DNA of 64,000 nucleotides, taken from NCBI GenBank assembly GCA_964016885.1, contig OZ024740.1, positions 156,116,001-156,180,000 of the forward strand, given 5' to 3'. The notes under the pieces are model-generated. The model was not told the origin of the DNA and made no database searches. It saw nothing but the letters and a program-made list of their open reading frames with translations. This DNA comes from Eledone cirrhosa (taxonomy: Eukaryota). This document shows, one piece after another, positions 391 to 61,812 of the stretch (the first letter of the stretch is position 1; every line of letters starts with the position of its first letter). Both the position numbers and the translations under genes were made by a program.

Positions 391-2872
<2,482 letters not shown>

Positions 2873-15395: not shown

Positions 15396-15429
<34 letters not shown>

Positions 15430-15508
15430 TAGTAGTAGTAGTAGTAAGGTGTTCGATGCTGCGACAATGGCCAGCAGCGATGTGTGTCAAATGGCTATTA
15501 AGATACGC

Positions 15509-15604
<96 letters not shown>

Positions 15605-15719
15605 ACCAGTATTTTTTTCCCCCTGGTAAAATGGTGTACATTATTCGATTTTTTTCAGTAAGATCGGTTCTCTTAATAGAACATAAAAAATTTTAACAAT
15701 AAAAGGTGTGAAATGATAT

Positions 15720-15760
<41 letters not shown>

Positions 15761-16820: not shown

Positions 16821-16879
<59 letters not shown>

Positions 16880-16948
16880 ATCTTAATAGCCATTTGACAC
16901 ACATCGCTTCTGGCTATTGTCGCAGCATCGAACACCTTACTACTACTA

Positions 16949-16992
<44 letters not shown>

Positions 16993-17462
16993 TTGTTGTG
17001 AAAGAGTCATTTCTCAATCTTGGCGCAAAACCAATTTTTTATCCACATGACCTCTACCGACCAATCAAAATTGTTTTGACCAAGAATTTTTGCTGGAGCC
17101 ACTTTTTTAACATAAAAACAGTCTTGGCGCAAAATCAACTTTTTACATTCACATGACCTCTACCGACCAATCAAAATTGTTTTGACCACAAGCATTTTTG
17201 CAACACAAAAATAACGCTGGAGCCACTTTTTTTAACATAAAAACAGGTAGAATTCCCAAAACTAATCAGATCAGAGCAAACAGCACGGACACTCTATCTC
17301 AAAATTATTTTTGAAAAGCATTTAGAAATGCGCAACCGGTAAAAACTTAAAAACTTAAAACCACAACTGAATACTAACCCATACAATCACTAATACTCTT
17401 TTATTCCTAATTAAACCATTTTTCAACTGTGAACAATTTGTCAGCATTTTCTATTCCGTTTA

Positions 17463-17503
<41 letters not shown>

Positions 17504-20500
17504 GTTAAATGAACCTGATACAAACAAATTATCTCACCTGCATAATGTGCATTTTGAACACTGTACGATACATTTTTATAATGTGAAGGTACCACAGCTA
17601 TATACACATCAGCGTTTGGTACGTTAGCAACGCAGCTGTAATTCACCTCAGAATTGAAATATGCTATATTTTGGGAAATAATGGTGACTTGTGGAATGGA
17701 CGAGAAAGAAAAGTTTCTGCTCCGTTCGGCAATCGATACATTTTGGTAAAGCAATTTGCAAGTTATTTTCACTGCAGAATACAAACATGAAAATATTATA
17801 GATTAGAGAAACAACATTCGGTTGATGCATCATAAGTTTACGTAATTATAGATTAATAATTTCAAATATATGGAATATACCTATATGACCCCAGGAAATG
17901 ATATTAGTAAATTATGTTTAATCGAATTGTTTTAGAATAATATAAATGAGGACACTAATCAATTATCAACAATAATAAATATTTAAAGCTACTAACAACC
18001 CCACCAACTATAACCTAATGAGTACCAACAGAATTGTCACCCGTTTACTGGAACTTTATAACATTATTAAACACATTCCACCCTTCCTTTTACTCTAACC
18101 GAATATATTTCTCAATATTCTCAGTCATTGACTTTAAGAACAACTATAAATACAACGCAACTTCAGATAAAATCTAATTATCTCTGAAGATACATATGTT
18201 AACTTCTATTCGAAATAAATATACCTCTGGAAAATACGTAAAAATAAAATTAACCCCTCTATCTTCTTCGATTTCATGTTGTAATGTATCGCAAGTCGGT
18301 TGGGGTAAACCTCAAATAATTTCTTATCTATGTACCTCTCACTCTATCTACCTACCTATATATAATCGAGAAAAATGATATCTTACCTGGTGATGCCTGT
18401 GTTAAAGTAAGTTCTCCAATTGTTACGTTGGTTAGCTTCCTTATTTTTGGTATTCCGCCTTTTTCAATATCATTCAAATACCATTGGAAAGTGGTTTGTG
18501 GTGGTAATTTGTTCGTATTACAGCTAAATGTTATGTTCTTCATACTATTCATTGTTGTTAACACACCATATAATGAATCATTATAGTCTGTGTATGCGAG
18601 ATATCATAAAAATATTTTAATGTTAATCATAATTTTCAACATTGTAACGTAATAATTGTTTCTACTTTTAGCACGGGGCCAGCAATTATCCCAGTGCATT
18701 ACTGGTACTTTATTTTATCGACCCGGTAAGGATGAAAGGCAAAGTTAACCTCGACGGGATTTGAACTCAGATCATAAAGGGCCGTAACTCTATGCTGCAA
18801 AGCATGGCGTCCGACCCTGTACCATAACTGCCAATCCACAATGATGTATTAATTCTAATATTGTGCAAGTATTAAAAATTAATATTGTGACGAATCGCTT
18901 ACAGAAAATATTATTCGTAAAATCACCATAAATTTTACATTGTTTGTTGTTGTTGCTCTCGCCTTAGTCCGTTTTGAGTTAGTTTACTTATAATCAAATA
19001 TATTCTGTGTCCTTCCGTTTTTTTCCAGATGCAGTGTTTCCAGGACGGCATTCTCGAATATGTTCTATTTTTTAAATTACTTTAGTGAGGCAAGTTTGGT
19101 TGAATAGATTATATCACTCCATCATTACCTCTATTACTCTCCCATAGTTTATATTCTTGTATTGTTTTATTGATTTCAGTCATTACCCCGCGGCCATGCT
19201 GGGGTTTCCCAATCATACTGACCTTAGTAATCACTTTTTCAACTCTGTTACCTATTTTATTGATTTTTAATTTTTATTGAAATTCTCAGAGACGGCACAT
19301 AAACAGAGGCACAAACGTAAACATACACACATACGATGAGCTTCTACAGATTCCATTTGTTTAATTTCACCCATAAGGTATTGGTCATCCCGAGGCTATA
19401 TTACAAGACATTTGCCCAAGATGTCACGCCGTGGGAATGAACCTGAAATCACGTGGTTGCGAAGCAAACTGATTACCTCAATAGTTATTCATGTTTCATT
19501 GCAATTATTTGGATTAATTTCACTCATGGACTGCAGCCATGCAGGTTCAGCACCTTCAATAGTTCAAAGGCTTTATAGTCTACTGTAATGGAACCGTTAC
19601 TCTCGTTTGGTATTTATTTTATTGATGTCAGAGAAATAAGAATTGCAAAGTCATCCGAGTGTAGGCAGAAGCAATCGTGAGGGATACAAATGCGATATAT
19701 TTTTTGTGATTGATGCAGTCATTTTGTTTACTACCTGACGCTAATGAGCACATACAAATGCAGAAAGACAGACACTGTTTAATTTGCCTTGCTTGCTTTG
19801 AGGGTTTAAGTCGGAGGGGCGTCGTCGTGTCTTATGTCCTTGTCATTTAAATCCTGGTAGAGACCACTCCTTTTCATGAATAACCAAAGCCGATTTCTTC
19901 CAGAGAGAGAGAGAGAGATAGATAGATAGAGAGAGAGAGAGGGAAAGGTGGAAAGAAATCGACGCCCAATACTCAACTAGTACTTTTATTACCGACCCAA
20001 AATGATGGGAGGTAAACTTAACCTCTGCGGGATTTGATCCCAGAACACAGAGAACCCGAACAAACATTGCAATGTACTATATTCGATACTGTAACGATTC
20101 TTTCAATTCATGGTTTATACTCTGAATAACAACAGATGTTCATTCAGATAAATTTCAACAGATAATTGAAAGTAAGTAACTATCAATGGCAACAAAGACT
20201 ATGATTTGTTCACTTTAGTGCTTTTAACAGGTTTCAGTCTCTTGCAAGATACGAACCAGACCAACGGTTTGCTCCACGTCCATGTTATTCATGATGATAC
20301 TAACCTGGCGATATTGAAACTAGATATTAGCAACATCAATGTAATCACTACAAAAATGCCTGCAAAAATCGTAGACATGTCTCTTCTATCCTGATTAATT
20401 TATAAAAGAAAAAAAAAATGAATTCATGTAAAAGATACATACCTCCCAGGGAAACTATTTCTTTTATGAGTCCCATTTGGTTTCCATTTACGGCAAAGCA

Positions 20501-23500
20501 TGTAATGTTTGTGACTCCTGATGTTATAGTATTTCCTAATAAATATAGTTATAGATTGGTTTAACCATTTCAATTCTATTAGATTCGAATAGAGTCAAAT
20601 AAACTTACACTTCAAAAAATGAGAAGCAAATGTCATAAAGATATTAGTACAGATTAAAAGAAAAGGTTCTACTTTTTAGTCTTTTGCTTTTTTTAATATC
20701 CAACATCTTTATTTATTCAATATAAAAGAATCTCTTAATGTGATGAAAGGCCATTGACATTATATAAAAATAATAGAGCAGTATCTAATGAAAACAAAAT
20801 ATACTGTTAAATGGAACAGAAAATGAAAAGGAGAAAAAGAAAGAAAGATCAAGCAACCAAAGAAAGGGAGAGGAGCAGGGACTGTCACTACACACCAGTT
20901 TGAGCGGTGCCTCAGCTGTGCTCCGCAAGCGGCCCATCATCTTTCCGACTTTACGGAGGAAATCAGCAGTGCGGGGAACAAGGATGCCAGAGGTCTCGAT
21001 GGAAGCTGGTGCGAAGAAGAAGCGGTTGGTCAACCCCGGTATTTGACTAACCTCGTATCTTTCGTATTGCGGACTGCAGAGTCCAGGTTTGTGGTCGAAG
21101 CGAAGAGGCTGCAGGCGAAGAATTAGTCACAGCTTTTTCTCTCATTACGCAGAGTGGGCAGGTTGATGTAATTGGCTAACACACTTATCACGAAAATAAG
21201 AGATTTGGATTCGATTCCCGCGTATGCTGATTTTACCACTTTTTTATTCTAATCTGGGGTCTTATAAGCCCTGTTATTATCAGATAATTTTGTTTTTATT
21301 TATCTAATTTATTTTCACATCTCGTTTAACTGTTCACCCCCCCCCCTTTGTTTTACATGCGTTATTTCCATACCACACCACTCTCACGCATATACATATA
21401 TTTCTTATAATATACATATATTTCTCATACCACTGAGTCTTACCACCAATGCACGCACACACAACATATACGCTCTAGCGCACATTCAAGACGATTTCAT
21501 TGATTAATTAAAATTCATAAAACATCTAGAAAACCAACAGTCTGGCAGATTAACTTACCTTTATAAAATCCCCTTGCACTGAATGTAGTCACACCCAAAG
21601 TATTTTCCAGAGTTACGTGGACTGTAGCGTTTGATATATTTGCGACGCAGTCGTAATTTAACATAGGAATCACATTAGATACTGATGCATTTAGCTCAAC
21701 ATCTGGAAATTGTTGTAATTCAAAAGTTGTATGCAAACTATCCTGCATATTACCAGAATTTATGGTGCAGTTTACGGGTACTTAATCGAAAATAAAAGAA
21801 AAACAGATTAGAAACATCAGGAGAAAAAGAATGAAAACTTTTAATAGAGAACCGTGACAGAGCTTATCGGCTATCAAAAATATACATTCACTTTTGTATG
21901 TTTTTTTATCTATTACTAGTTTCAGACTATGTTATATTCATCACTTGATTATGGCAGATATCTTATCGAGCATGACAAAATATTTTGTGATATTTAATTT
22001 TCTGAGCGCATATTCTGCATTGTATTAACATAAAAGGTAAATATAACGGTTTGTGCTTTTGAATGATGGCTACTTAAACGTATATCGAGTAACCAGTGAA
22101 ACTATTTATATTTAATAAAAGATATACATAAAATCCTTTGTTATGGCTTAGTCGTTAGGGCACTTGATTAAAAATGCCTCAATATTTGTTCAGGCTTCTG
22201 TCAAGGTCAACTTTGCTTTTCATCCCTTCTAGTTCAATATATATAGTACCATCCATTACTGGAGTCGGTTGTTCTCTTTATTTCTCTGGAAGAAATTCGC
22301 TGTGTTCCGACCTGGTGAGGGATGGACTCTGCCAGATTTAAAATGTCCAAAACACGCCATAATTTTATTGCCGAGTCGTATTCATAAAATATAGAACTCA
22401 GATAGCCTCGATCCTCGGCGAATTTAATAAAATGTTTCGAAAAAAGCATCTAGACATTGCTTTTATATAAATTAACCAGATCTATATTCACATGTCACAT
22501 CATTCAATATATATACAAAGATATTATATAGAAAAAAACATACGTACTTCTATCTCCGGACGTAAATTGATATATATCTTTGACTATAATACTCTCCTGC
22601 GAGCGATTGCTTTGCAATATCTGATTGGTTACCATACCAGTAACGGGTTTTCCAGAAATAAACCACGAATAGTTCAGGTTAGCAATGTTATAATATGTGT
22701 AGCATGTAAAATTTGCACCGCCATTGCCTTCTAACTTCGCTGTTAGTCGTATCATTTGGGAAATAACTGGAAAAAATGGATAAAATACAAATATTCCACA
22801 TAAATAGATGTTTCGGCATCCCACATTTTAACTTTTGACTTTGAATTCACAACTTCCAATAAAAAAACATCAACAGGAACATTAAAAAGCAACACAAAAT
22901 ACAAACTAATCCAATTATTATGATATATTACAAATAATGATGTCTTGCACCATGGCATGTACATTTGTGTGTGTGTATATAGAAAAGAGTTTCATTTCTA
23001 CTCAGAAAATAAATTTTACACTCTATCTGAAGTTATTTACGGCTTTTAACATGCTGGCCTCAATTTCCCCCTCTCCAGAATCTATGTCATATTTAAGTTC
23101 ATTAATTGGTCTCGTGACTGCAACCCCCAAAAGGTTGGTCTTAGCCCATAGATGCATCTCATGTACATTAAAAGATGTGACCGGGTTTAGGAGATCAGCC
23201 AAGTATTCTCTCCCCGTCTCGAGGACGCACCTCACTTCAGAGAGAAGAACCCCAGACAAGTTGTTGACAGCAGGCCTGGAGATGGACTTTTTATTGCAAA
23301 GTTGGTGGATGGTCTGCGACCATACTTTATTTCCAGCTTAACCCCAATGTCCTTCAATGTCTTAACCTTGGACGCCTTTACTGTCTCTGCTACGACACAT
23401 CACGACTGCTTGTACCACGAGTACAAGAAGGAAGACTTATTTCTAATCCAAGCTTTGTAAGCTCCCTTCTTTGATCGGATAGCATTGTTAACTTCCTGAT

Positions 23501-25914
23501 TGGACACGGCGGTGCTGCTGCTAACCACTGCCACATCGAGCCGCTTTCATCCGCAGTATTTAATAGCTGAAGCAGAAATTGCCGAGCTGAACAGTCTCCT
23601 CTCTGTTTCAACGTACTCAATTCTTTCAGGGTGTTCTCTGAATTTGGATGCAATAGTATCCACATATCCAATCATGAAATCTTCATCAGACAACGCTTTC
23701 CTCTTTATTCTGTATGGTGATATGAATTTGTCACAGTTTTAGGTTTTCTTAACTTTAGGTAATTTCGGATTACAGATAACTATATGGTGATCAGTTGACA
23801 GCTCAGCTCTCTCCTAACACGAACATCCAGCACAGAATCGAAGAGCTCAGAGACAATAGAAAAATCACTTACTGATCATTGTCCCCGATTTCTCGAAAAC
23901 CATGAATATTTATAGATGTCTTTGTACTGTAAGAAGATGTTTATAATAGAGAGTTAATTACTAGAATGGAAACCTAATAAGGCCTCTCCATTTGCATTTA
24001 GATCGGGATCGCCGTTCCTTCACATCAATATTTTCGCTGTCAGTTGCTTAGTGTCAGTATGTGCATTGACGTCGCTCATTAGGATATATGACAGAGAACA
24101 AATACCGTTTACACAAGCCACTATAGTTCCATCTGAGAGCAAACTACCGATCCAAGAGATGACTGACGGATGAAGATCGTAAGCGGTTAGTTTTGAGAGG
24201 CGATTCACATGTCAGACACGACCAAAAGCTTAGGTTATGTTGTGGGACAACAACATTGTTTTCAGCAAATTTCTCTAAGTAGGGAGTTCACTGACGTGAC
24301 ATAGAAGAGTAGGTCTTAGGTTGATCAGGTTTTACGGAAAACATGTTGGTAGTCGTTAAGGAAAGAGTGAAACGGGGGAGACGGAAGGAGAGAAAGAAAA
24401 AAATTCAGCTGATAGAGAAATTCATTGATAATTTTATAGTGTATTGTGGATGAATAAACAAACCTACTAGACATTTTGCCAACCTATAGTGTTTTTATGT
24501 TCCAAAGTACATCCGTAGATTCACACTTTGTTTATACTTTTTACATTTGTTGCATTCAACAGTGAACAAGGCACGGTAAGCTGACCAGTTTTTGAGATAA
24601 ACAATTCTTGAAATACACCTTTACAGTCCCTTCCTAGTAATTTGGGTGAGTAGTGCTCTAATTACATAATTGTTTCTACTGTTGGCACAAGGCCAGCAAT
24701 TATCCCAGTGTATTACTGGTACTTTATTTATCGACCCCGTAAGGATGAAAGGCAAAGTTAACCTCGACGGGATTTGAACTCAGATCATAAAGGGCCGTAA
24801 CTCTATGCTGCAAAGCATGGCGTCCGACCCTGTACCATAACTGCCAATCCACAATGATGTATTAATTCTAATATTGTGCAAGTATTAAAAATTAATATTG
24901 TGACGAATCGCTTACAGAAAATATTATTCGTAAAATCACCATAAATTTTACATTGTTTGTTGTTGTTGCTCTCGCCTTAGTCCGTTTTGAGTTAGTTTAC
25001 TTATAATCAAATATATTCTGTGTCCTTCCGTTTTTTTCCAGATGCAGTGTTTCCAGGACGGCATTCTCGAATATGTTCTATTTTTTAAATTACTTTAGTG
25101 AGGCAAGTTTGGTTGAATAGATTATATCACTCCATCATTACCTCTATTACTCTCCCATAGTTTATATTCTTGTATTGTTTTATTGATTTCAGTCATTACC
25201 CCGCGGCCATGCTGGGGTTTCCCAATCATACTGACCTTAGTAATCACTTTTTCAACTCTGTTACCTATTTTATTGATTTTTTAATTTTTATTGAACTTCT
25301 CAGAGACGGCACATAAACAGAGGCACAAACGTAAACATACACACATACGATGAGCTTCTACAGATTCCTTTTGTTTAATTTCACCCATAAGGTATTGGTC
25401 ATCCCGAGGCTATATTACAAGACATTTGCCCAAGATGTCACGCCGTGGGAATGAACCTGAAATCACGTGGTTGCGAAGCAAACTCCTTACCTCAATAGTT
25501 ATTCATGTTTCATTGCAATTATTTGGATTAATTTCTCTCATGGACTGCAGCCATGCAGGTTCAGCACCTTCAATAGTTCAAAGGCTTTATAGTCTACTGT
25601 AATGGAACCGTTACTCTCGTTTGGTATTTATTTTATTGATGTCAGAGAAATAAGAATTGCAAAGTCATCCGAGTGTAGGCAGAAGCAATCGTGAGGGATA
25701 CAAATGCGATATATTTTTTGTGATTGATGCAGTCATTTTGTTTACTACCTGACGCTAATGAGCACATACAAATGCGGAAAGACAGACACTGTTTAATTTG
25801 CCTTGCTTGCTTTGAGAGTTTAAGTCGGAGGGGCGTCGTCGTGTCTTATGTCCTTGTCATTTAAAACCTGGTAGAGACCACTCCTTTTCATGAATAACCA
25901 AAGCCGATTTCTTC

Positions 25915-25949
<35 letters not shown>

Positions 25950-28900
25950 CGGAAAGGTGGAAAGAAATCGACGCCCAATACTCAACTAGTACTTTTATTA
26001 CCGACCCAAAATGATGGGAGGTAAACTTAACCTCTGCGGCATTTGATCCCAGAACACAGAGAACCCGAACAAACATTGCAATGTACTATATTCGATACTG
26101 TAACGATTCTTTCAATTCATGGTTTATACTCTGAATAACAACAGATGTTCATTCAGATAAATTTCAACAGATAATTGAAAGTAGTAACTATCCATGGCAA
26201 CAAAGACTATGATTTGTTCACTTTAGTGCTTTTAACAGGTTTCAGTCTCTTGCAAGATACGAACCAGACCAACGGTTTGCTCCACGTCCATGTTATTCAT
26301 GATGATACTAACCTGGCGATATTGAAACTAGATATTAGCAACATCAATGTAATCACTACAAAAATGCCTGCAAAAATCGTAGACATGTCTCTTCTATCCT
26401 GATTAATTTATAAAAGAAAACAAAAATGAATTCATGTAAAAGATACATACCTCCCGGGGAAACTATTTCTTTTATGAGTCCCATTTGGTCTCCATTTACC
26501 GCAAAGCATGTAATCTTTGTGACTCCTGATGTGTTACTATTTCCTAATAAATATAGTTATAGATTGGTTTAACCATTTCAATTCTATTAGATTCGAATAG
26601 AGTTAAATAAACTTACACTTCATAAAATGAGAAGCAAATGTCATAAAGATATTAGTACAGATTAAAAGAAAAGGTTCTACTTTTTAGTCTTTTGCTTTTT
26701 TTAATATCCAACATCTTTATTTATTCAATATAAAAAAAATCTCTTCATGTGATAAAAGGCCATTGACATTATATAAAAATAATAGAGCAGTATCTAATGA
26801 AAACAAAATATACTGTTAAATGGAACAGAAAATGAAAAGGAGAAAAAGAAAGAAAGATCAAGCAACCAAAGAAAGGGAGAGGAGCAGGGACTGTCACTAC
26901 ACACCAGTTTGAGCGGTGCCTCAGCTGTGCTCCGCAAGCGGCCCATCATCTTTCCGACTTTACGGAGGAAATCAGCAGTGCGGGGAACAAGGATGCCAGA
27001 GGTCTCGATGGAAGCTGGTGCGAAGAAGAAGCGGTTGGTCAACCCCGGTATTTGACTAACCTCCACTCTTTCGTATTGCGGACTGCAGAGTCCAGGTTTG
27101 TGGTCGAAGCGAAGAGGCTGCAGGCGAAGAATTAGTCACAGCTTTTTCTCTCATTACGCAGAGTGGGCAGGTTGATGTAATTGGCTAACACACTTATCAC
27201 GAAAATAAGAGATTTGGATTCGATTCCCGCGTATGCTGATTTTACCACTTTTTTATTCTAATCTGGGGTCTTATAAGCCCTGTTATTATCAGATAATTTT
27301 GTTTTTATTTATCTAATTTATTTTCACATCTCGTTTAACTGTTCACCCCCCCCCCTTTGTTTTACTTGCGTTATTTCCATACCACACCACTCTCACGCAT
27401 ATACATATATTTCTTATAATATACATATATTTCTCATACGACTGAGTCTTACCACCAATGCACGCACACACAACATATACGCTCTAGCGCACATTCAAGA
27501 CGATTTCATTGATTAATTAAAATTCATAAAACATCTAGAAAACCAACAGTCTGGCAGATTAACTTACCTTTATAAAATCCCCTTGCACTGAATGTAGTCA
27601 CACCCAAAGTATTTTCCAGAGTTACGTGGACTGTAGCGTTTGATATATTTGCGACGCAGTCGTAATTTAACATAGGAATCACATTAGATACTGATGCATT
27701 TAGCTCAACATCTGGAAATTGTTGTAATTCAAAAGTTGTATGCAAACTATCCTGCATATTACCAGAATTTATGGTGCAGTTTACGGGTACTTAATCGAAA
27801 ATAAAAGAAAAACAGATTAGAAACATCAGGAGAAAAAGAATGAAAACTTTTAATAGAGAACCGTGACAGAGCTTATCGGCTATCAAAAATATACATTCAC
27901 TTTTGTATGTTTTTTTATCTATTACTAGTTTCAGACTATGTTATATTCATCACTTGATTATGGCAGATATCTTATCGAGCATGACAAAATATTTTGTGAT
28001 ATTTAATTTTCTGAGCGCATATTCTGCATTGTATTAACATAAAAGGTAAATATAACGGTTTGTGCTTTTGAATGATGGCTACTTAAACGTATATCGAGTA
28101 ACCAGTGAAACTATTTATATTTAATAAAAGATATACATAAAATCCTTTGTTATGGCTTAGTCGTTAGGGCACTTGATTAAAAATGCCTCAATATTTGTTC
28201 AGGCTTCTGTCAAGGTCAACTTTGCTTTTCATCCCTTCTAATTCAATATATATAGTACCATCCATTACTGGAGTCGGTTGTTCTCTTTATTTCTCTGGAA
28301 GAAATTCGCTGTGTTCCGACCTGGTGAGGGATGGACTCTGCCAGATTTAAAATGTCCAAAACACGCCATAATTTTATTGCCGAGTCGTATTCATAAAATA
28401 TAGAACTCAGATAGCCTCGATCCTCGGCGAATTTAATAAAATGTTTCGAAAAAAGCATCTAGACATTGCTTTTATATAAATTAACCAGATCTATATTCAC
28501 ATGTCACATCATTCAATATATATACAAAGATATTATATAGAAAAAAACATACGTACTTCTATCTCCGGACGTAAATTGATATATATCTTTGACTATAATA
28601 CTCTCCTGCGAGCGATTGCTTTGCAATATCTGATTGGTTACCATACCAGTAACGGGTTTTCCAGAAATAAACCACGAATAGTTCAGGTTAGCAATGTTAT
28701 AATATGTGTAGCATGTAAAATTTGCACCGCCATTGCCTTCTAACTCCGCTGTTAGTCGTATCATTTGGGAAATAACTGGAAAAAATGGATAAAATACAAA
28801 TATTCCACATAAATAGATGTTTCGGCATCCCACATTTTAACTTTTGACTTTGAATTCACAACTTCCAATAAAAAAACATCAACAGGAACATTAAAAAGCA

Positions 28901-31900: not shown

Positions 31901-31920
31901 TAACCAAAGCCGATTTCTTC

Positions 31921-31952
<32 letters not shown>

Positions 31953-37900: not shown

Positions 37901-37926
37901 CATGAATAACCAAAGCCGATTTCTTC

Positions 37927-37958
<32 letters not shown>

Positions 37959-40900: not shown

Positions 40901-43900
40901 GCAACACAAAATACAAACTAATACAATTATTATGATATATTACAAATAATGATGTCTTGCACCATGGCATGTACATTTGTGTGTGTGTGTGTGTATATAG
41001 AAAAGAGTTTCATTTCTACTCAGAAAATAAATTTTACACTCTATCTGAAGTTATTTACGGCTTTTAACATGCTGGCCTCAATTTCCCCCTCTCCAGAATC
41101 CATGTCATATTTAAGTTCATTAATTGGTCTCGTGACTGCAACCCCCAAAAGGTTGGTCTTAGCCCATAGATGCATCTCATGTACATTAAAAGATGTGACC
41201 GGGTTTAGGAGATCAGCAAAGTATTCTCTCCCCCTCTCGAGGACGCACCTCACTTCAGAGAGAAGAACCCCAGACAAGTTGTTGACAGCAGGCCTGGAGA
41301 TGGACTTTTTATTGCAAAGTTGGTGGATGGTCTGCGACCATACTTTATTTCCAGCTTAACCCCAATGTCCTTCAATGTCTTAACCTTGGACGCCTTTACT
41401 GTCTCTGCTACGACACATCACGACTGCTTGTACCACGAGTACAAGAAGGAAGACTTATTTCTAATCCAAGCTTTGTAAGCTCCCTTCTTTGATCGGATAG
41501 CATTGTTAACTTCCTGATTGGACACGGCGGTGCTGCTGCTAACCACTGCCACATCGAGCCGCTTTCATCCGCAGTATTTAATAGCTGAAGCAGAAATTGC
41601 CGAGCTGAACAGTCTCCTCTCTGTTTCAACGTACTCAATTCTTTCAGGGTGTTCTCTGAATTTGGATGCAATAGTATCCACATATCCAATCATGAAATCT
41701 TCATCAGACAACGCTTTCCTCTTTATTCTGTATGGTGATATGAACTTGTCACAGTTTTAGGTTTTCTTAACTTTAGGTAATTTCGGATTACAGATAACTA
41801 TATGGTGATCAGTTGACAGCTCAGCTCTCTCCTAACACGAACATCCAGCACAGAATCGAAGAGCTCAGAGACAATAGAAAAATCACTTACTGATCATTGT
41901 CCCCGATTTCTCGAAAACCATGAATATTTATAGATGTCTTTGTACTGCAAGAAGATGTTTATAATAGAGAGTTAATTACTAGAATGGAAACCTAATAAGG
42001 CCTCTCCATTTGCATTTAGATCGGGATCGCCGTTCCTTCACATCAATATTTTCGCTGTCAGTTGCTTAGTGTCAGTATGTGCATTGACGTCGCTCATTAG
42101 GATATATGACAGAGAACAAATACCGTTTACACAAGCCACTATAGTTCCATCTGAGAGCAAACTACCGATCCAAGAGATGACTGACGGATGAAGATCGTAA
42201 GCGGTTAGTTTTGAGAGGCGATTCACATGTCAGACACGACCAAAAGCTTAGGTTATGTTGTGGGACAACAACATTGTTTTCAGCAAATTTCTCTAAGTAG
42301 GGAGTTCACTGACGTGACATAGAAGAGTAGGTCTTAGGTTGATCAGGTTTTACGGAAAACATGTTGGTAGTCGTTAAGGAAAGAGTGAAACGGGGGAGAC
42401 GGAAGGAGAGAAAGAAAAAAATTCAGCTGATAGAGAAATTCATTGATAATTTTATAGTGTATTGTGGATGAATAAACAAACCTACTAGACATTTTGCCAA
42501 CCTATAGTGTTTTTATGTTCCAAAGTACATCCGTAGATTCACACTTTGTTTATACTTTTTACATTTGTTGCATTCAACAGTGAACAAGGCACGGTAAGCT
42601 GACCAGTTTTTGAGATAAACAATTCTTGAAATACACCTTTACAGTCCCTTCCTAGTAATTTGGGTGAGTAGTGCTCTAATTACATAATTGTTTCTACTGT
42701 TGGCACAAGGCCAGCAATTATCCCAGTGTATTACTGGTACTTTATTTATCGACCCCGTAAGGATGAAAGGCAAAGTTAACCTCGACGGGATTTGAACTCA
42801 GATCATAAAGGGCCGTAACTCTATGCTGCAAAGCATGGCGTCCGACCCTGTACCATAACTGCCAATCCACAATGATGTATTAATTCTAATATTGTGCAAG
42901 TATTAAAAATTAATATTGTGACGAATCGCTTACAGAAAATATTATTCGTAAAATCACCATAAATTTTACATTGTTTGTTGTTGTTGCTCTCGCCTTAGTC
43001 CGTTTTGAGTTAGTTTACTTATAATCAAATATATTCTGTGTCCTTCCGTTTTTTTCCAGATGCAGTGTTTCCAGGACGGCATTCTCGAATATGTTCTATT
43101 TTTTAAATTACTTTAGTGAGGCAAGTTTGGTTGAATAGATTATATCACTCCATCATTACCTCTATTACTCTCCCATAGTTTATATTCTTGTATTGTTTTA
43201 TTGATTTCAGTCATTACCCCGCGGCCATGCTGGGGTTTCCCAATCATACTGACCTTAGTAATCACTTTTTCAACTCTGTTACCTATTTTATTGATTTTTT
43301 AATTTTTATTGAACTTCTCAGAGACGGCACATAAACAGAGGCACAAACGTAAACATACACACATACGATGAGCTTCTACAGATTCCTTTTGTTTAATTTC
43401 ACCCATAAGGTATTGGTCATCCCGAGGCTATATTACAAGACATTTGCCCAAGATGTCACGCCGTGGGAATGAACCTGAAATCACGTGGTTGCGAAGCAAA
43501 CTCCTTACCTCAATAGTTATTCATGTTTCATTGCAATTATTTGGATTAATTTCTCTCATGGACTGCAGCCATGCAGGTTCAGCACCTTCAATAGTTCAAA
43601 GGCTTTATAGTCTACTGTAATGGAACCGTTACTCTCGTTTGGTATTTATTTTATTGATGTCAGAGAAATAAGAATTGCAAAGTCATCCGAGTGTAGGCAG
43701 AAGCAATCGTGAGGGATACAAATGCGATATATTTTTTGTGATTGATGCAGTCATTTTGTTTACTACCTGACGCTAATGAGCACATACAAATGCGGAAAGA
43801 CAGACACTGTTTAATTTGCCTTGCTTGCTTTGAGAGTTTAAGTCGGAGGGGCGTCGTCGTGTCTTATGTCCTTGTCATTTAAAACCTGGTAGAGACCACT

Positions 43901-46900
43901 CCTTTTCATGAATAACCAAAGCCGATTTCTTCCAGAGAGAGAGAGAGAGAGAGAGAGGGGGCGGAAAGGTGGAAAGAAATCGACGCCCAATACTCAACTA
44001 GTACTTTTATTACCGACCCAAAATGATGGGAGGTAAACTTAACCTCTGCGGGATTTGATCCCAGAACACAGAGAACCCGAACAAACATTGCAATGTACTA
44101 TATTCGATACTGTAACGATTCTTTCAATTCATGGTTTATACTCTGAATAACAACAGATGTTCATTCAGATAAATTTCAACAGATAATTGAAAGTAAGTAA
44201 CTATCCATGGCAACAAAGACTATGATTTGTTCACTTTAGTGCTTTTAACAGGTTTCAGTCTCTTGCAAGATACGAACCAGACCAACGGTTTGCTCCACGT
44301 CCATGTTATTCATGATGATACTAACCTGGCGATATTGAAACTAGATATTAGCAACATCAATGTAATCACTACAAAAATGCCTGCAAAAATCGTAGACATG
44401 TCTCTTCTATCCTGATTAATTTATAAAAGAAAACAAAAATGAATTCATGTAAAAGATACATACCTCCCACGGAAACTATTTTTTCTTTTATGAGTCCCAT
44501 TTGGTTTCCATTTACCGCAAAGCATGTAATCTTTGTGACTCCTGATGTGTTACTATTTCCTAATAAATATAGTTATAGATTGGTTTAACCATTTCAATTC
44601 TATTAGATTCGAATAGAGTCAAATAAACTTACACTTCATAAAATGAGAAGCAAATGTCATAAAGATATTAGTACAGATTAAAAGAAAAGGTTCTACTTTT
44701 TAGTCTTTTGCTTTTTTTAATATCCAACATCTTTATTTATTCAATATAAAAAAAATCTCTTCATGTGATAAAAGGCCATTGACATTATATAAAAATAATA
44801 GAGCAGTATCTAATGAAAACAAAATATACTATTAAATGGAACAGAAAATGAAAAGGAGAAAAAGAAAGAAAGATCAAGCAACCAAAGAAAGGGAGAGGAG
44901 CAGGGACTGTCACTACACACCAGTTTGAGCGGTGCCTCAGCTGTGCTCCGCAAGCGGCCCATCATCTTTCCGACTTTACGGAGGTAATCAGCAGTGCGGG
45001 GAACAAGGATGCCAGAGGTCTCGATGGAAGCTGGTGCGAAGAAGAAGCGGTTGGTCAACCCCGGTATTTTACTAACCTCCACTCTTTCGTATTGCGGACT
45101 GCAGAGTCCAGGTTTGTGGTCGAAGCGAAGAGGCTGCAGGCGAAGAATTAGTCACAGCTTTTTCTCTCATTACGCAGAGTGGGCAGGTTGATGTAATTGG
45201 CTAACACACTTATCACGAAAATAAGAGATTTGGATTCGATTCCCTCGTATGCTGATTTTACCACTTTTTTTATTCTAATCTGGGGTCTTATAAGCCCTGT
45301 TATTATCAGATAATTTTGTTTTTATTTATCTAATTTATTTTCACATCTCGTTTAACTGTTCACCCCCCCCCCCCTTTGTTTTACTTGCGTTATTTCCATA
45401 CCACACCACTCTCACGCATATACATATATTTCTTATAATATACATATATTTCTCATACGACTGAGTCTTACCACCAATGCACGCACACACAACATATACG
45501 CTCTAGCGCACATTCAAGACGATTTCATTGATTAATTAAAATTCATAAAACATCTAGAAAACCAACAGTCTGGCAGATTAACTTACCTTTATAAAATCCC
45601 CTTGCACTGAATGTAGTCACACCCAAAGTATTTTCCAGAGTTACGTGGACTGTAGCGTTTGATATATTTGCGACGCAGTCGTAATTTAACATAGGAATCA
45701 CATTAGATACTGATGCATTTAGCTTAACATCTGGAAATTGTTGTAATTCAAAAGTTGTATGCAAACTATCCTGCATAGCACCAGAATTTATGGTGCAGTT
45801 TACGGGTACTTAATCGAAAATAAAAGAAAAAAAGAATAGAAACATCAGGAGAAAAAGAATGAAAACTTTTAATAGAGAACCGTGACAGAGCTTATCGGCT
45901 ATCAAAAATATACATTCACTTTTGTATGTTTTTTATCTATTACTAGTTTCAGACTATGTTATATTCATCACTTGATTATGGCAGATATCTTATCGAGCAT
46001 GACAAAATATTTTGTGATATTTAATTTTCTGAGCGCATATTCTGCATTGTATTAACATAAAAGGTAAATATAACGGTTTATGCTTTTGAATGATGGCTAC
46101 TTAAACGTATATCGAGTAACCAGTGAAACTATTTATATTTAATAAAAGATATACATAAAATCCTTTGTTATGGCTTAGTCGTTAGGGCACTTGATTAAAA
46201 ATGCCTCAATATTTGTTCAGGCTTATGTCAAGGTCAACTTTGCTTTTCATCCCTTCTAGTTCAAAATATATAGTACCATCCATTACTGGAGTCGGTTGTT
46301 CTCTTTATTTCTCTGGAAGAAATTCGCTGTGTTCCGACCTGGTGAGGGATGGACTCTGCAAGATTTAAAATGTCCAAGACACGCCATAATCTTATTGCCG
46401 AGTCGTATTCATAAAATATAGAACTCAGATAGCCTCGATCCTCGGCGAATTTAATAAAATGTTTCGAAAAAAGAATCGAGACATTGCTTTTATATAAATT
46501 AACCAGATCTATATTCATATGTCACATCATTCAATATATATACAAAGATATTATATAGAAAACATACGTACTTCTATCTCCGGACGTAAATTGATATATA
46601 TCTTTGACTATAATACTCTCCTGCGAGCGATTGCTTTGCAATATCTGATTGGTTACCATACCAGTAACGGGTTTTCCAGAAATAAACCACAAATAGTTCA
46701 GGTTAACCATGTTAAAATATGTGTAGCATGTAAAATTTGCACCGCCATTGCCTTCTAACTTCGCTGTTAGTCGTATCATTTGGGAAATAACTGGAAAAAA
46801 TGGATAAAATACAAATATTCCACATAAATAGATGTTTCGGCATCCCACATTTTAACTTTGAATTCACAACTTCCAATAAAAAAACATCAACAGGAACATT

Positions 46901-49900
46901 AAAAAGCAACACAAAATACAAACTAATACAATTATTATGATATATTACAAATAATGATGTCTTGCACCATGGCATGTACATTTGTGTGTGTGTGTGTGTA
47001 TATAGAAAAGAGTTTCATTTCTACTCAGAAAATAAATTTTACACTCTATCTGAAGTTATTTACGGCTTTTAACATGCTGGCCTCAATTTCCCCCTCTCCA
47101 GAATCCATGTCATATTTAAGTTCATTAATTGGTCTCGTGACTGCAACCCCCAAAAGGTTGGTCTTAGCCCATAGATGCATCTCATGTACATTAAAAGATG
47201 TGACCGGGTTTAGGAGATCAGCAAAGTATTCTCTCCCCCTCTCGAGGACGCACCTCACTTCAGAGAGAAGAACCCCAGACAAGTTGTTGACAGCAGGCCT
47301 GGAGATGGACTTTTTATTGCAAAGTTGGTGGATGGTCTGCGACCATACTTTATTTCCAGCTTAACCCCAATGTCCTTCAATGTCTTAACCTTGGACGCCT
47401 TTACTGTCTCTGCTACGACACATCACGACTGCTTGTACCACGAGTACAAGAAGGAAGACTTATTTCTAATCCAAGCTTTGTAAGCTCCCTTCTTTGATCG
47501 GATAGCATTGTTAACTTCCTGATTGGACACGGCGGTGCTGCTGCTAACCACTGCCACATCGAGCCGCTTTCATCCGCTGTATTTAATAGCTGAAGCAGAA
47601 ATTGCCGAGCTGAACAGTCTCCACTCTGTTTCAACGTACTCAATTCTTTCAGGGTGTTCTCTGAATTTGGATGCAATAGTATCCACATATCCAATCATGA
47701 AATCTTCATCAGACAACGCTTTCCTCTTTATTCTGTATGGTGATATGAACTTGTCACAGTTTTAGGTTTTCTTAACTTTAGGTAATTTCGGATTACAGAT
47801 AACTATATGGTGATCAGTTGACAGCTCAGCTCTCTCCTAACACGAACATCCAGCACAGAATCGAAGAGCTCAGAGACAATAGAAAAATCACTTACTGATC
47901 ATTGTCCCCGATTTCTCGAAAACCATGAATATTTATAGATGTCTTTGTACTGCAAGAAGATGTTTATAATAGAGAGTTAATTACTAGAATGGAAACCTAA
48001 TAAGGCCTCTCCATTTGCATTTAGATCGGGATCGCCGTTCCTTCACATCAATATTTTCGCTGTCAGTTGCTTAGTGTCAGTATGTGCATTGACGTCGCTC
48101 ATTAGGATATATGACAGAGAACAAATACCGTTTACACAAGCCACTATAGTTCCATCTGAGAGCAAACTACCGATCCAAGAGATGACTGACGGATGAAGAT
48201 CGTAAGCGGTTAGTTTTGAGAGGCGATTCACATGTCAGACACGACCAAAAGCTTAGGTTATGTTGTGGGACAACAACATTGTTTTCAGCAAATTTCTCTA
48301 AGTAGGGAGTTCACTGACGTGACATAGAAGAGTAGGTCTTAGGTTGATCAGGTTTTACGGAAAACATGTTGGTAGTCGTTAAGGAAAGAGTGAAACGGGG
48401 GAGACGGAAGGAGAGAAAGAAAAAAATTCAGCTGATAGAGAAATTCATTGATAATTTTATAGTGTATTGTGGATGAATAAACAAACCTACTAGACATTTT
48501 GCCAACCTATAGTGTTTTTATGTTCCAAAGTACATCCGTAGATTCACACTTTGTTTATACTTTTTACATTTGTTGCATTCAACAGTGAACAAGGCACGGT
48601 AAGCTGACCAGTTTTTGAGATAAACAATTCTTGAAATACACCTTTACAGTCCCTTCCTAGTAATTTGGGTGAGTAGTGCTCTAATTACATAATTGTTTCT
48701 ACTGTTGGCACAAGGCCAGCAATTATCCCAGTGTATTACTGGTACTTTATTTATCGACCCCGTAAGGATGAAAGGCAAAGTTAACCTCGACGGGATTTGA
48801 ACTCAGATCATAAAGGGCCGTAACTCTATGCTGCAAAGCATGGCGTCCGACCCTGTACCATAACTGCCAATCCACAATGATGTATTAATTCTAATATTGT
48901 GCAAGTATTAAAAATTAATATTGTGACGAATCGCTTACAGAAAATATTATTCGTAAAATCACCATAAATTTTACATTGTTTGTTGTTGTTGCTCTCGCCT
49001 TAGTCCGTTTTGAGTTAGTTTACTTATAATCAAATATATTCTGTGTCCTTCCGTTTTTTTCCAGATGCAGTGTTTCCAGGACGGCATTCTCGAATATGTT
49101 CTATTTTTTAAATTACTTTAGTGAGGCAAGTTTGGTTGAATAGATTATATCACTCCATCATTACCTCTATTACTCTCCCATAGTTTATATTCTTGTATTG
49201 TTTTATTGATTTCAGTCATTACCCCGCGGCCATGCTGGGGTTTCCCAATCATACTGACCTTAGTAATCACTTTTTCAACTCTGTTACCTATTTTATTGAT
49301 TTTTTAATTTTTATTGAACTTCTCAGAGACGGCACATAAACAGAGGCACAAACGTAAACATACACACATACGATGAGCTTCTACAGATTCCTTTTGTTTA
49401 ATTTCACCCATAAGGTATTGGTCATCCCGAGGCTATATTACAAGACATTTGCCCAAGATGTCACGCCGTGGGAATGAACCTGAAATCACGTGGTTGCGAA
49501 GCAAACTCCTTACCTCAATAGTTATTCATGTTTCATTGCAATTATTTGGATTAATTTCTCTCATGGACTGCAGCCATGCAGGTTCAGCACCTTCAATAGT
49601 TCAAAGGCTTTATAGTCTACTGTAATGGAACCGTTACTCTCGTTTGGTATTTATTTTATTGATGTCAGAGAAATAAGAATTGCAAAGTCATCCGAGTGTA
49701 GGCAGAAGCAATCGTGAGGGATACAAATGCGATATATTTTTTGTGATTGATGCAGTCATTTTGTTTACTACCTGACGCTAATGAGCACATACAAATGCGG
49801 AAAGACAGACACTGTTTAATTTGCCTTGCTTGCTTTGAGAGTTTAAGTCGGAGGGGCGTCGTCGTGTCTTATGTCCTTGTCATTTAAAACCTGGTAGAGA

Positions 49901-52900
49901 CCACTCCTTTTCATGAATAACCAAAGCCGATTTCTTCCAGAGAGAGAGAGAGAGAGAGAGAGGGGGCGGAAAGGTGGAAAGAAATCGACGCCCAATACTC
50001 AACTAGTACTTTTATTACCGACCCAAAATGATGGGAGGTAAACTTAACCTCTGCGGGATTTGATCCCAGAACACAGAGAACCCGAACAAACATTGCAATG
50101 TACTATATTCGATACTGTAACGATTCTTTCAATTCATGGTTTATACTCTGAATAACAACAGATGTTCATTCAGATAAATTTCAACAGATAATTGAAAGTA
50201 AGTAACTATCCATGGCAACAAAGACTATGATTTGTTCACTTTAGTGCTTTTAACAGGTTTCAGTCTCTTGCAAGATACGAACCAGACCAACGGTTTGCTC
50301 CACGTCCATGTTATTCATGATGATACTAACCTGGCGATATTGAAACTAGATATTAGCAACATCAATGTAATCACTACAAAAATGCCTGCAAAAATCGTAG
50401 ACATGTCTCTTCTATCCTGATTAATTTATAAAAGAAAACAAAAATGAATTCATGTAAAAGATACATACCTCCCACGGAAACTATTTTTTCTTTTATGAGT
50501 CCCATTTGGTTTCCATTTACCGCAAAGCATGTAATCTTTGTGACTCCTGATGTGTTACTATTTCCTAATAAATATAGTTATAGATTGGTTTAACCATTTC
50601 AATTCTATTAGATTCGAATAGAGTCAAATAAACTTACACTTCATAAAATGAGAAGCAAATGTCATAAAGATATTAGTACAGATTAAAAGAAAAGGTTCTA
50701 CTTTTTAGTCTTTTGCTTTTTTTAATATCCAACATCTTTATTTATTCAATATAAAAAAAATCTCTTCATGTGATAAAAGGCCATTGACATTATATAAAAA
50801 TAATAGAGCAGTATCTAATGAAAACAAAATATACTATTAAATGGAACAGAAAATGAAAAGGAGAAAAAGAAAGAAAGATCAAGCAACCAAAGAAAGGGAG
50901 AGGAGCAGGGACTGTCACTACACACCAGTTTGAGCGGTGCCTCAGCTGTGCTCCGCAAGCGGCCCATCATCTTTCCGACTTTACGGAGGTAATCAGCAGT
51001 GCGGGGAACAAGGATGCCAGAGGTCTCGATGGAAGCTGGTGCGAAGAAGAAGCGGTTGGTCAACCCCGGTATTTTACTAACCTCCACTCTTTCGTATTGC
51101 GGACTGCAGAGTCCAGGTTTGTGGTCGAAGCGAAGAGGCTGCAGGCGAAGAATTAGTCACAGCTTTTTCTCTCATTACGCAGAGTGGGCAGGTTGATGTA
51201 ATTGGCTAACACACTTATCACGAAAATAAGAGATTTGGATTCGATTCCCTCGTATGCTGATTTTACCACTTTTTTTATTCTAATCTGGGGTCTTATAAGC
51301 CCTGTTATTATCAGATAATTTTGTTTTTATTTATCTAATTTATTTTCACATCTCGTTTAACTGTTCACCCCCCCCCCCTTTGTTTTACTTGCGTTATTTC
51401 CATACCACACCACTCTCACGCATATACATATATTTCTTATAATATACATATATTTCTCATACGACTGAGTCTTACCACCAATGCACGCACACACAACATA
51501 TACGCTCTAGCGCACATTCAAGACGATTTCATTGATTAATTAAAATTCATAAAACATCTAGAAAACCAACAGTCTGGCAGATTAACTTACCTTTATAAAA
51601 TCCCCTTGCACTGAATGTAGTCACACCCAAAGTATTTTCCAGAGTTACGTGGACTGTAGCGTTTGATATATTTGCGACGCAGTCGTAATTTAACATAGGA
51701 ATCACATTAGATACTGATGCATTTAGCTTAACATCTGGAAATTGTTGTAATTCAAAAGTTGTATGCAAACTATCCTGCATAGCACCAGAATTTATGGTGC
51801 AGTTTACGGGTACTTAATCGAAAATAAAAGAAAAAAAGAATAGAAACATCAGGAGAAAAAGAATGAAAACTTTTAATAGAGAACCGTGACAGAGCTTATC
51901 GGCTATCAAAAATATACATTCACTTTTGTATGTTTTTTATCTATTACTAGTTTCAGACTATGTTATATTCATCACTTGATTATGGCAGATATCTTATCGA
52001 GCATGACAAAATATTTTGTGATATTTAATTTTCTGAGCGCATATTCTGCATTGTATTAACATAAAAGGTAAATATAACGGTTTATGCTTTTGAATGATGG
52101 CTACTTAAACGTATATCGAGTAACCAGTGAAACTATTTATATTTAATAAAAGATATACATAAAATCCTTTGTTATGGCTTAGTCGTTAGGGCACTTGATT
52201 AAAAATGCCTCAATATTTGTTCAGGCTTATGTCAAGGTCAACTTTGCTTTTCATCCCTTCTAGTTCAAAATATATAGTACCATCCATTACTGGAGTCGGT
52301 TGTTCTCTTTATTTCTCTGGAAGAAATTCGCTGTGTTCCGACCTGGTGAGGGATGGACTCTGCAAGATTTAAAATGTCCAAGACACGCCATAATCTTATT
52401 GCCGAGTCGTATTCATAAAATATAGAACTCAGATAGCCTCGATCCTCGGCGAATTTAATAAAATGTTTCGAAAAAAGAATCGAGACATTGCTTTTATATA
52501 AATTAACCAGATCTATATTCATATGTCACATCATTCAATATATATACAAAGATATTATATAGAAAACATACGTACTTCTATCTCCGGACGTAAATTGATA
52601 TATATCTTTGACTATAATACTCTCCTGCGAGCGATTGCTTTGCAATATCTGATTGGTTACCATACCAGTAACGGGTTTTCCAGAAATAAACCACAAATAG
52701 TTCAGGTTAACCATGTTAAAATATGTGTAGCATGTAAAATTTGCACCGCCATTGCCTTCTAACTTCGCTGTTAGTCGTATCATTTGGGAAATAACTGGAA
52801 AAAATGGATAAAATACAAATATTCCACATAAATAGATGTTTCGGCATCCCACATTTTAACTTTGAATTCACAACTTCCAATAAAAAAACATCAACAGGAA

Positions 52901-61520: not shown

Positions 61521-61613
61521 ATGTCGGTGTATATCCTCTTGGTAACCGACCCTCTGAAGTCTCCAATCGCTTTGGGGAATTTTTCTTTTAAATATATATA
61601 ATGTTCTTTTTTA

Positions 61614-61798: not shown

Positions 61799-61812
61799 AA
61801 ATAATGATAATA

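What the first reader, a model, noticed from the sequence alone, without database searches (positions are those of the whole stretch)
20443..52794. Copy-to-copy exon differences are almost all amino-acid-changing: possible diversifying selection
Seen (counted by eye): about 16 exonic substitutions among the six units, only one clearly synonymous (GCC/GCG in exon C). Exon A: K/E, Y/F, I/M, A/V, S/L. Exon B: N/A, E/K. Exon C: TI/SN, N/K, N/D, L/P/V, plus an in-frame +K. Four of the exon A changes cluster between the B-strand Cys and the C-strand Trp (YYNIANLNYSW vs YFNMVNLNYLW), the BC-loop region that often binds ligand in Ig folds. Long intronic stretches such as ~18.9-19.9 kb differ much less, although the intron just 3' of exon A also has a cluster of differences. 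Inference: selection for variation, as in recognition proteins. The numbers are small, and even neutral change is mostly non-synonymous.
Basis: partly seen in the sequence, partly recalled or inferred. Interest (0 to 1): 0.75.

Follow-up and report, generated by a model that had tools for sequence, protein, structure and literature searches.

The report
Octopus adhesion receptor with diverging repeats
Six recently copied three-exon blocks, each predicted to encode two immunoglobulin-like domains, sit in what is likely the outer arm of an octopus adhesion receptor; the copies differ at amino-acid-changing sites about three times as often as in their introns, which likely reflects selection for variety, although only three distinct versions exist and chance is not excluded.

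Summary
The counts are right: 16 exonic substitutions, 15 amino-acid-changing, plus a one-codon indel. But four of the six units have identical exons and U2 is a recombinant, so the data are three versions. dN/dS alone is not significant (4.5, CI 0.7-188, p 0.05-0.09). The better test does hold: replacement sites differ 3.4 times as often as introns (CI 1.8-6.0; rotation p 0.006-0.014), while synonymous sites match the introns. Downstream exons encode HRM, GPS and 7tm_2 domains, so it is likely an adhesion GPCR with about 18 Ig-like domains (one assembly gap intervenes). RNA contigs confirm splicing and both main versions. Octopus sinensis amplified a different two-Ig unit of this gene, but its variable sites do not match ours (2 of 13, p 0.51), so a fixed binding hot-spot is not shown. 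Three changes map to the BC loop and one to the neighbouring FG turn; three alter N-glycan sites. Most likely: unequal crossing-over plus selection on a fast-evolving surface (0.45); chance with relaxed constraint 0.3. The scan noted a similar pattern before on other DNA (an LRR-type octopus receptor; unchecked).

The parts
18652..54691 (.). Tandem array of six ~6.0-kb units (U1 18652, U2 24666, U3 30675, U4 36678, U5 42684, U6 48689), each starting in a SINE-like repeat
   Evidence: self-BLAST 98.0-99.5% at 6-kb offsets; alignment; DNA contig depth 6.2-7.7 times the single-copy flank
52576..52794 (-). Exon A, U6 (beta type): strands A-E of Ig-like domain 1
   Evidence: RNA contig covers it exactly with 0 differences
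51591..51812 (-). Exon B, U6 (beta): F-G of domain 1 and first part of domain 2
   Evidence: A-B and B-C splice joints in RNA contigs
50469..50564 (-). Exon C, U6 (beta, with extra Lys): end of domain 2
46572..46790 (-). Exon A, U5 (identical to U6)
45587..45808 (-). Exon B, U5 (identical to U6)
44464..44559 (-). Exon C, U5 (identical to U6)
40567..40785 (-). Exon A, U4 (identical to U6)
39582..39803 (-). Exon B, U4 (identical to U6)
38462..38557 (-). Exon C, U4 (identical to U6)
34561..34779 (-). Exon A, U3 (identical to U6)
33576..33797 (-). Exon B, U3 (identical to U6)
32456..32551 (-). Exon C, U3 (identical to U6)
28557..28775 (-). Exon A, U2 (alpha type plus private K11E)
27568..27789 (-). 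Exon B, U2 (alpha, identical to U1)
26451..26543 (-). Exon C, U2 (mosaic: beta-like first part, no extra Lys, private N166D and P178)
22548..22766 (-). Exon A, U1 (alpha: Y26, I28, A29, S34)
21559..21780 (-). Exon B, U1 (alpha: N84, E102)
   Evidence: alpha codon 84 present in an RNA contig
20443..20535 (-). Exon C, U1 (alpha: T150, I151, N157, L178; holds the one synonymous change)
18387..18587 (-). Exon D, single-copy A-type Ig exon after the array
   Evidence: Pfam Ig_3 E 4.5e-4, under the family cut-off; RNA joint to E and to exon C
17538..17771 (-). Exon E, single-copy B-type exon
   Evidence: 59-62% identical to O. sinensis repeats; D-E splice joint
57129..57263 (-). Exon just upstream of the array, spliced to exon A; domain not identified
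   Evidence: loose end of an RNA contig at 52794 reads this exon; no Pfam hit
57784..57952 (-). Candidate further upstream exon (phase 0-1); domain not identified
   Evidence: splice-site scan; no Pfam or PDB sequence hit; not confirmed by RNA

Best explanation
The six units are recent in-frame copies of a three-exon module, predicted to fold as two Ig-like domains, in what is likely the extracellular arm of an octopus adhesion GPCR, and selection has likely favoured amino-acid differences on the exposed surface of that arm. Shown: the units, their splicing, the HRM, GPS and 7tm_2 exons downstream on the same strand, the mosaic pattern, the threefold excess of replacement changes over introns. 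Inferred: unequal crossing-over and gene conversion built the array and keep U3-U6 identical; U2 is a recombinant; the end unit U1 escapes homogenisation. Alpha and beta types differ by about 1% in introns, so they may be two old alleles brought into tandem. Inferred, least sure: the favoured changes alter what the arm binds (a cell-surface or microbial partner), mostly at the BC/FG tip of domain 1, and the receptor signals through the usual GAIN/tethered-agonist route.
For: Replacement sites against introns: ratio 3.35, CI 1.77-5.99, p 2e-4; merged events 2.88, p 0.002; alpha versus beta alone 2.92, p 0.002. Synonymous sites 1 of about 123, ratio 0.75 to introns, so no sign of a raised exon mutation rate, at low power. 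Excess on three branches: U1-private 5 of 30, alpha/beta 8 of 26, U2-private 3 of 7; combined p 3e-4, or 0.002 merged. No outside donor: 6 of 6 matches in the genome lie in the array for exons A, B and C. Variants are real: alpha codon 84 in RNA, alpha letters in 1-2 raw DNA reads at 5 sites in a run of another study. Whole ectodomain evolves fast: Ig 104 of 177 and HRM 19 of 32 identical to O. bimaculoides, against 145 of 205 in 7TM exons. In single-copy exons D and E, two runs read V>A and P>S against the assembly. Y26F, I28M, A29V align to the BC loop, S34L to strand C, N84A to the FG turn of a model of the paralogous unit.
Against: dN/dS against synonymous sites not significant (p 0.09; 0.25 for 14/2). 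Three versions only; 0 exonic of 10 changes among U3-U6. Exons A+B alone: ratio 2.3, CI 0.87-5.5; the alpha/beta branch alone falls to p 0.18 when adjacent changes are merged. The locus was picked because it looked odd, so the p values are optimistic. Variable sites overlap those of the O. sinensis repeats 2 of 13 (p 0.51) and are not at less conserved columns (p 0.52). BC cluster p 0.11 without prior naming. No ligand, tissue or solvent-exposure data; the model is of a 20%-identical paralogous unit.
Confidence: 0.45

Rival explanations
1. No positive selection: the ectodomain is a weakly constrained spacer, nearly all mutations are tolerated, and a chance run of clustered or multi-nucleotide mutations and conversion tracts put more of them in exons.
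For: N:S ratio fits neutrality at p 0.05-0.25; several changes are adjacent pairs; intron changes are transversion-rich (20 transitions, 39 transversions); sites look randomly placed against family conservation; post-hoc choice of locus.
Against: Relaxed constraint can raise replacement rates up to the intron rate, not to three times it; only 9 of 5185 non-overlapping mask positions (0.17%) reach 16; excess on three branches; Cys and Trp framework and all splice sites intact in all six units.
Confidence: 0.3
2. Selection is real but acts on the build of the arm, not on a binding site: glycan placement, domain-to-domain contacts, or avoidance of misfolding between identical repeats in a force-bearing receptor.
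For: 3 of 13 variable residues change an N-X-S/T site (S34L loss, I151N gain, N157K loss), expected 8.7%, p 0.10; 6 of 23 in O. sinensis, p 0.06; combined p 0.016, found after the fact. BC/FG loops and the G-strand end (Lys indel, L/P/V178) are where successive Ig domains meet (general knowledge). Higher identity between neighbouring domains favours misfolding (passage in PMC12994066).
Against: Four identical units in a row are tolerated; neighbouring domains in the chain are already unlike; alpha and beta parts on the two sides of a junction do not always travel together (U3 exon C precedes U2 exon A).
Confidence: 0.17
3. Exon-limited changes are copied from RNA (edited transcripts used as repair templates) or fix A-to-I edits in DNA.
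For: An RNA contig reads GAT at codon 84, a state absent from all six assembled copies and one A>G step from alpha AAT; beta has G there. Edited adenines are often replaced by G in coleoids (abstract of PMC7703385).
Against: Only 4 of 16 exonic changes are A/G on the sense strand, against 8 of 59 in introns and 3 C/T in exons; GAT could be an allele of another haplotype.
Confidence: 0.05
4. The differences, or the extra copies, are assembly errors.
For: DNA contigs of three runs show only the beta type, though such contigs drop minor variants.
Against: Alpha letters in RNA contigs and in raw reads of another study; depth ratio 6.2-7.7; no frame or splice damage.
Confidence: 0.03

Closest known systems
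Adhesion GPCRs (GAIN/GPS plus 7tm_2); database label 'adhesion G-protein coupled receptor D1' for the O. bimaculoides 7TM part (P0005), LOC115210917 (O. sinensis) and LOC106882337 (O. bimaculoides) for the Ig part
   Same: HRM, GPS with H-L-T cleavage motif and 7tm_2 exons follow the Ig exons on one strand; same exon types and order as P0001/P0003.
   Different: About nine two-Ig units with a 99% identical six-fold array; the databases hold the gene only in pieces; the A-B-C unit itself (about 20% identical to the others) was not found in any database protein. The D1 label is an automatic name, no orthology test was run.
Abalone VERL (tandem repeats under concerted evolution)
   Same: Most repeats homogenised by conversion or unequal crossing-over, two at one end diverged, array length variable (passages of PMC2704960).
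   Different: VERL's diverged repeats 1-2 are at the N-terminal end and have shown positive selection and a known partner; here they are at the membrane-side end, each repeat has introns, dN/dS>1 is not shown and no partner is known.
EMR2/ADGRE2 with CD97 and EMR3
   Same: Adhesion GPCR ectodomain shaped by gene conversion (cited in PMC2720389, passages).
   Different: Conversion between genes, EGF modules; here within one single-copy gene, Ig modules.
Dscam duplicated Ig exons
   Same: Tandem exons that encode parts of Ig domains; excess replacement variation hard to tell from relaxed constraint (abstract of PMC3236188).
   Different: Dscam exons are mutually exclusive and show no conversion; here a three-exon chain is repeated, nearly identical and apparently several units per transcript.
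Octopus-specific adhesion GPCR expansion, group 3 of Ritschard et al. 2019 (PMC6408891)
   Same: Octopus adhesion GPCRs with branch-level signs of positive selection (passages).
   Different: That paper names LRR and Death domains and never mentions immunoglobulin (0 occurrences); this gene has one distant 7TM relative in its genome at the search's sensitivity.

Membership tests
Adhesion GPCR | GPS motif / GAIN domain before TM1 | tested here: met
   PF01825 E 2.8e-12, 47.4 bits over cut-off 22.5; GAIN-like exons upstream recognised by eye only (no Pfam hit)
Adhesion GPCR | Secretin-family 7TM (7tm_2) | tested here: met
   PF00002 E 6.4e-8, 32.6 bits over cut-off 20.6; 145 of 205 identical to P0005 over six exons
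Adhesion GPCR | Long adhesion-domain ectodomain on the same transcript as GPS/7TM | tested here: inconclusive
   RNA links upstream exon-A-B-C-D-E; O. sinensis P0001 links E-type units to the last Ig unit and O. bimaculoides P0003 links that unit to HRM; but a 200-N gap at C1:156096933 lies between E and the next Ig exon, one C- and one A-type exon are missing there, and no single transcript was seen
Adhesion GPCR | Autoproteolysis and G-protein signalling | not testable with these tools
   H-L-T motif and a typical tethered-agonist start are in the sequence; function needs bench work
Ig-like domain | B-strand Cys, C-strand Trp, F-strand Cys; beta-sandwich fold (domain 1) | tested here: met
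   Spliced units score 69.8-75.0 bits over full length on a profile of 9 paralogous units, best of 1000 shuffles 6.5; paralogue hits Ig_3 at 4.5e-9; model strands pLDDT 66-89. Exons A and B alone hit no Ig family
Ig-like domain | Same for domain 2 | tested here: inconclusive
   Two Cys, no Trp; our model is under pLDDT 60 there; the Atlas model of the paralogue aligns over both domains to two-Ig proteins at TM 0.56-0.70
Dscam-like mutually exclusive exon array | One exon of the array per transcript | tested here: inconclusive
   RNA contig depth 392-587 on repeated exons against 160 on D/E suggests several units per transcript, but contig depth is a poor measure and no C-to-A joint was listed; a beta-type C appears joined to D, which could be skipping or another haplotype
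VERL-like repeat array | Homogenised majority with diverged end repeats | tested here: met
   U3-U6 1-8 differences per 6 kb; U1 65-70 and U2 34-40 from them
VERL-like repeat array | dN/dS significantly above 1 in the diverged repeats | tested here: inconclusive
   4.5 (CI 0.7-188) against synonymous sites; 3.35 (CI 1.8-6.0) against introns
Octopus aGPCR expansion group 3 (PMC6408891) | 7TM falls in that clade | not tested
   No tree built; the paper's sequences were not on hand

The most novel reading that the evidence does not exclude
Octopods carry a concertina receptor: one adhesion GPCR whose lineages independently amplify different two-Ig modules, lock divergent alleles side by side by unequal crossing-over, and vary the same BC/FG tip both in DNA and by A-to-I editing, giving a variable recognition arm for self, mate or microbe on a G-protein signalling base.
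Probability: 0.15. Interest if true: 0.75.

Novelty: new variant of a known kind. Interest (0 to 1): 0.5.

Why it matters
Molluscs have few known variable recognition receptors, and most invertebrate adhesion GPCRs are orphans. A single-copy receptor whose Ig arm changes length and sequence quickly, in at least two octopod lineages on their own, is a concrete candidate for such a role and can be tested with phased haplotypes and domain-binding assays. The repeat's own introns give a built-in neutral clock, which makes the selection question unusually easy to settle with a few more genomes. If the excess is chance, what remains is a useful gene model and an ordinary case of concerted evolution.

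Tried and rejected
Exon B against the protein database: none of 32 candidates scored. Profile search of protein representatives never ran, so an ortholog of the A-B-C unit, needed to root the changes, may exist unseen. Gene conversion from a paralogue elsewhere: no donor among 6 of 6 matches. CpG decay as a cause: 1-2 of 16 changes fit, by eye. Shared hot-spots with O. sinensis: not found. Missing C- and A-type exons after E: not found in 464 kb around the window or by genome search (the latter ran with a stricter first look). A cadherin-like reading of the upstream exons was a recalled resemblance; Pfam and PDB sequence searches gave nothing, so it is not claimed. No run was on record as RNA; X4 is taken as RNA only because its contigs skip introns at CT..AC ends. 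Contigs drop minor variants, so they give no polymorphism table and no McDonald-Kreitman test. The spliced unit itself was not folded; the O. bimaculoides paralogue stood in. Atlas feature search of exon A: best 0.82, a lead only. Literature: no paper for 'LOC115210917', none for adhesion GPCR + immunoglobulin + invertebrate + tandem repeats + mollusc, one general review for cephalopod + ADGRD1; subscription journals and supplements were not searched.
Full report
What is there. The window holds six head-to-tail units of about 6,007 bp (18652-54691), 98.0-99.5% alike at 6-kb offsets. Each has three minus-strand exons with AG/GT ends, all phase 1-1 (A 219, B 222, C 93/96 nt), which give an open frame of 178 or 179 residues. 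One run behaves as RNA: its contigs skip the A-B, B-C and D-E introns at the predicted ends, and loose ends join exon 57129-57263 to A and exon C to D. DNA contig depth in the unit is 6.2-7.7 times that of the single-copy flank, in line with six copies (one flank contig, so rough).

The counts. But U3-U6 are identical in exons; U1 differs from them at 65-70 sites per unit and U2 at 34-40. U2 matches U3-U6 over the first 1790 columns (2 differences against 17 to U1) and U1 over columns 2801-5100 (4 against 25), so it is a recombinant; columns 5101-6028 are homogenised in U1-U5. The data are two types, alpha (U1) and beta (U3-U6), and one mosaic with three private exon changes.

Is it more than chance? 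Against synonymous sites, no: dN/dS 4.5, CI 0.69-188, p 0.09 (0.05-0.06 with mild transition bias; 0.25 if the ATA/AAC codon is read through a silent step). Against the unit's introns, yes: 15 of about 414 replacement sites against 59 of 5460 (31 microsatellite columns left out), ratio 3.35, CI 1.77-5.99; 2.88 with adjacent changes merged; 3.26 against 300-nt flanks; synonymous sites 0.75 of the intron rate. Rotating the exon mask gives p 0.006, or 0.014 for merged events. The excess shows on three branches (5 of 30, 8 of 26, 3 of 7; combined p 3e-4, merged 0.002) but not among U3-U6 (0 of 10). Exons A+B alone give 2.3, CI 0.87-5.5. All p values are after the fact. The variants are real: alpha codon 84 is in an RNA contig and alpha letters stand in 1-2 raw DNA reads at five sites in a run of another study, one of them in exon B. 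No outside donor copy was found.

The gene. In the genome the window is C1:156116001-156180000. On the same strand downstream lie further A-, B- and C-type exons (156052027-156062575), an HRM exon (156050124; PF02793 E 6.6e-5, under its cut-off), GAIN-like exons, a GPS exon (155978472; E 2.8e-12) and 7tm_2 exons (E 6.4e-8). An assembly gap of 200 N lies between exon E and these, and one C- and one A-type exon are missing. Homologues bridge it: O. sinensis P0001 has eight two-Ig units from E-type to the last unit, O. bimaculoides P0003 joins that last unit to HRM, and P0005 is the 7TM part. So the array is likely the ectodomain of an adhesion GPCR with about 18 Ig-like domains. The spliced units score 70-75 bits on a profile of the other units (best shuffle 6.5 of 1000); the paralogue models as Ig-like domains. 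Identity to O. bimaculoides is 59% (Ig), 59% (HRM) and 71% (7TM); the two named Octopus species share 82% over the Ig pair.

A second lineage. O. sinensis has its own young triplet (87-95% identical) of a different unit, the D/E type. Repeat amplification in this gene is therefore recurrent. Its variable columns overlap ours at 2 of 13 (p 0.51), and our variable columns are not less conserved across unit types (p 0.52). This counts against a fixed hypervariable site. No DNA was available for it, so no rate test.

Where the changes sit. On the model of the paralogue (domain 1 pLDDT 66-89), Y26F, I28M and A29V fall in the BC loop, S34L on strand C next to the Trp, N84A in the FG turn. BC and FG loops lie at the same tip of an Ig domain, which is both a common binding site and the contact with the previous domain (general knowledge). 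The BC cluster has p 0.006 if named beforehand, 0.11 otherwise. Three of 13 changes remove or create an N-glycan site, and 6 of 23 do in O. sinensis (combined p 0.016, after the fact).

Extra variation in reads. The RNA run has three contigs at codon 84: beta GCT (depth 356), alpha AAT (140) and GAT (91), the last absent from the assembly and one A>G step from alpha. A-to-I editing is the simplest reading (common in coleoids; abstract of PMC7703385); an allele is not excluded. In single-copy D and E, two runs read V>A and P>S against the assembly and the RNA run also a silent change; the DNA contig has 3 differences over 1170 nt, two of them named. The exon C joined to D looks like beta type (U1 and U6 ends match at 22 of 30), which means skipping or another haplotype; this is inferred from which reference the contig laid on.

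Mechanism and rivals. Most likely (0.45): unequal crossing-over and conversion built and homogenise the array, the end units escape, and selection keeps amino-acid differences on an exposed, fast-evolving arm, probably for binding. The 1% intron distance between alpha and beta would fit two old alleles fixed side by side (inference; background heterozygosity not measured). Rivals: relaxed constraint plus chance (0.3), selection on glycans, junctions or folding (0.17), RNA-templated change (0.05), artefact (0.03).

Known comparisons and papers seen. VERL (PMC2704960, passages); EMR2/CD97 (PMC2720389, passages); Dscam (PMC3236188, abstract); octopus GPCR expansions (PMC6408891, part 2 of 6 and passages); aGPCR definition (PMC6900090, passages); misfolding of tandem domains (PMC12994066, passages). 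No supplements were read; the InterPro table of PMC6408891 could list this gene. Searches found no description of it. One earlier scan note on another genome describes an LRR-type octopus adhesion receptor with a like pattern; it came after my reading was set and was not checked.

Verdict. Observation confirmed; interpretation partly supported. A real but modest signal in an undescribed, repeat-dynamic adhesion GPCR. Interest 0.5.

Noticed in passing
window 21751 (and 27760 region in U2): RNA contig reads GAT (Asp) at codon 84, about 39% of alpha-type depth; likely A-to-I recoding at a site where the beta copies carry a genomic G.
   Followed up: partly
window 17591, 18501, 18565: Reads differ from the assembly in single-copy exons E and D (V>A, P>S, one silent); none named in the intron between them.
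   Followed up: partly
window 50469 / 18587: RNA contig appears to join a beta-type exon C straight to exon D, whereas the assembly has alpha U1 there: unit skipping or a different haplotype.
   Followed up: partly
P0001 (O. sinensis XP_029635561.1), residues about 170-890: Independent young triplication of the D/E-type two-Ig unit, with a chimeric fourth copy; the record lacks both ends of the gene.
   Followed up: yes
G000:C1:156096933-156097132 (L010): 200-N scaffold gap inside AT/TA-rich satellite in the intron after exon E; probably hides at least two exons.
   Followed up: partly
window 14911-17476: Inverted repeat arms (651 bp, 98%) around a 247-codon frame that resembles a GIY-YIG endonuclease of Penelope-type elements (recalled resemblance); more such frames at 11806-12552 and 13507-14040.
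   Followed up: no
window 389-2872: 2.5-kb (AT)n satellite with a 22-bp higher-order period.
   Followed up: no
window 2949-6049 and 58100-64000: Decayed LINE-like reverse transcriptase frames; two related copies at 58.3-60.4 and 62.1-63.7 kb (77% alike).
   Followed up: no
G000:C1:156181798-156185390 (L023) and 156010465-156012444 (L019): Frames that look like Helitron Rep/helicase pieces (recalled resemblance) in introns of the same gene region.
   Followed up: no
G000:C1:156232106-156232321 and 156196844-156196963: Candidate upstream phase 1-1 exons that may belong to the N-terminus of the gene; no domain assigned.
   Followed up: no
window 18652-54691 introns: Intronic differences between units show no transition bias (20 transitions, 39 transversions).
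   Followed up: no
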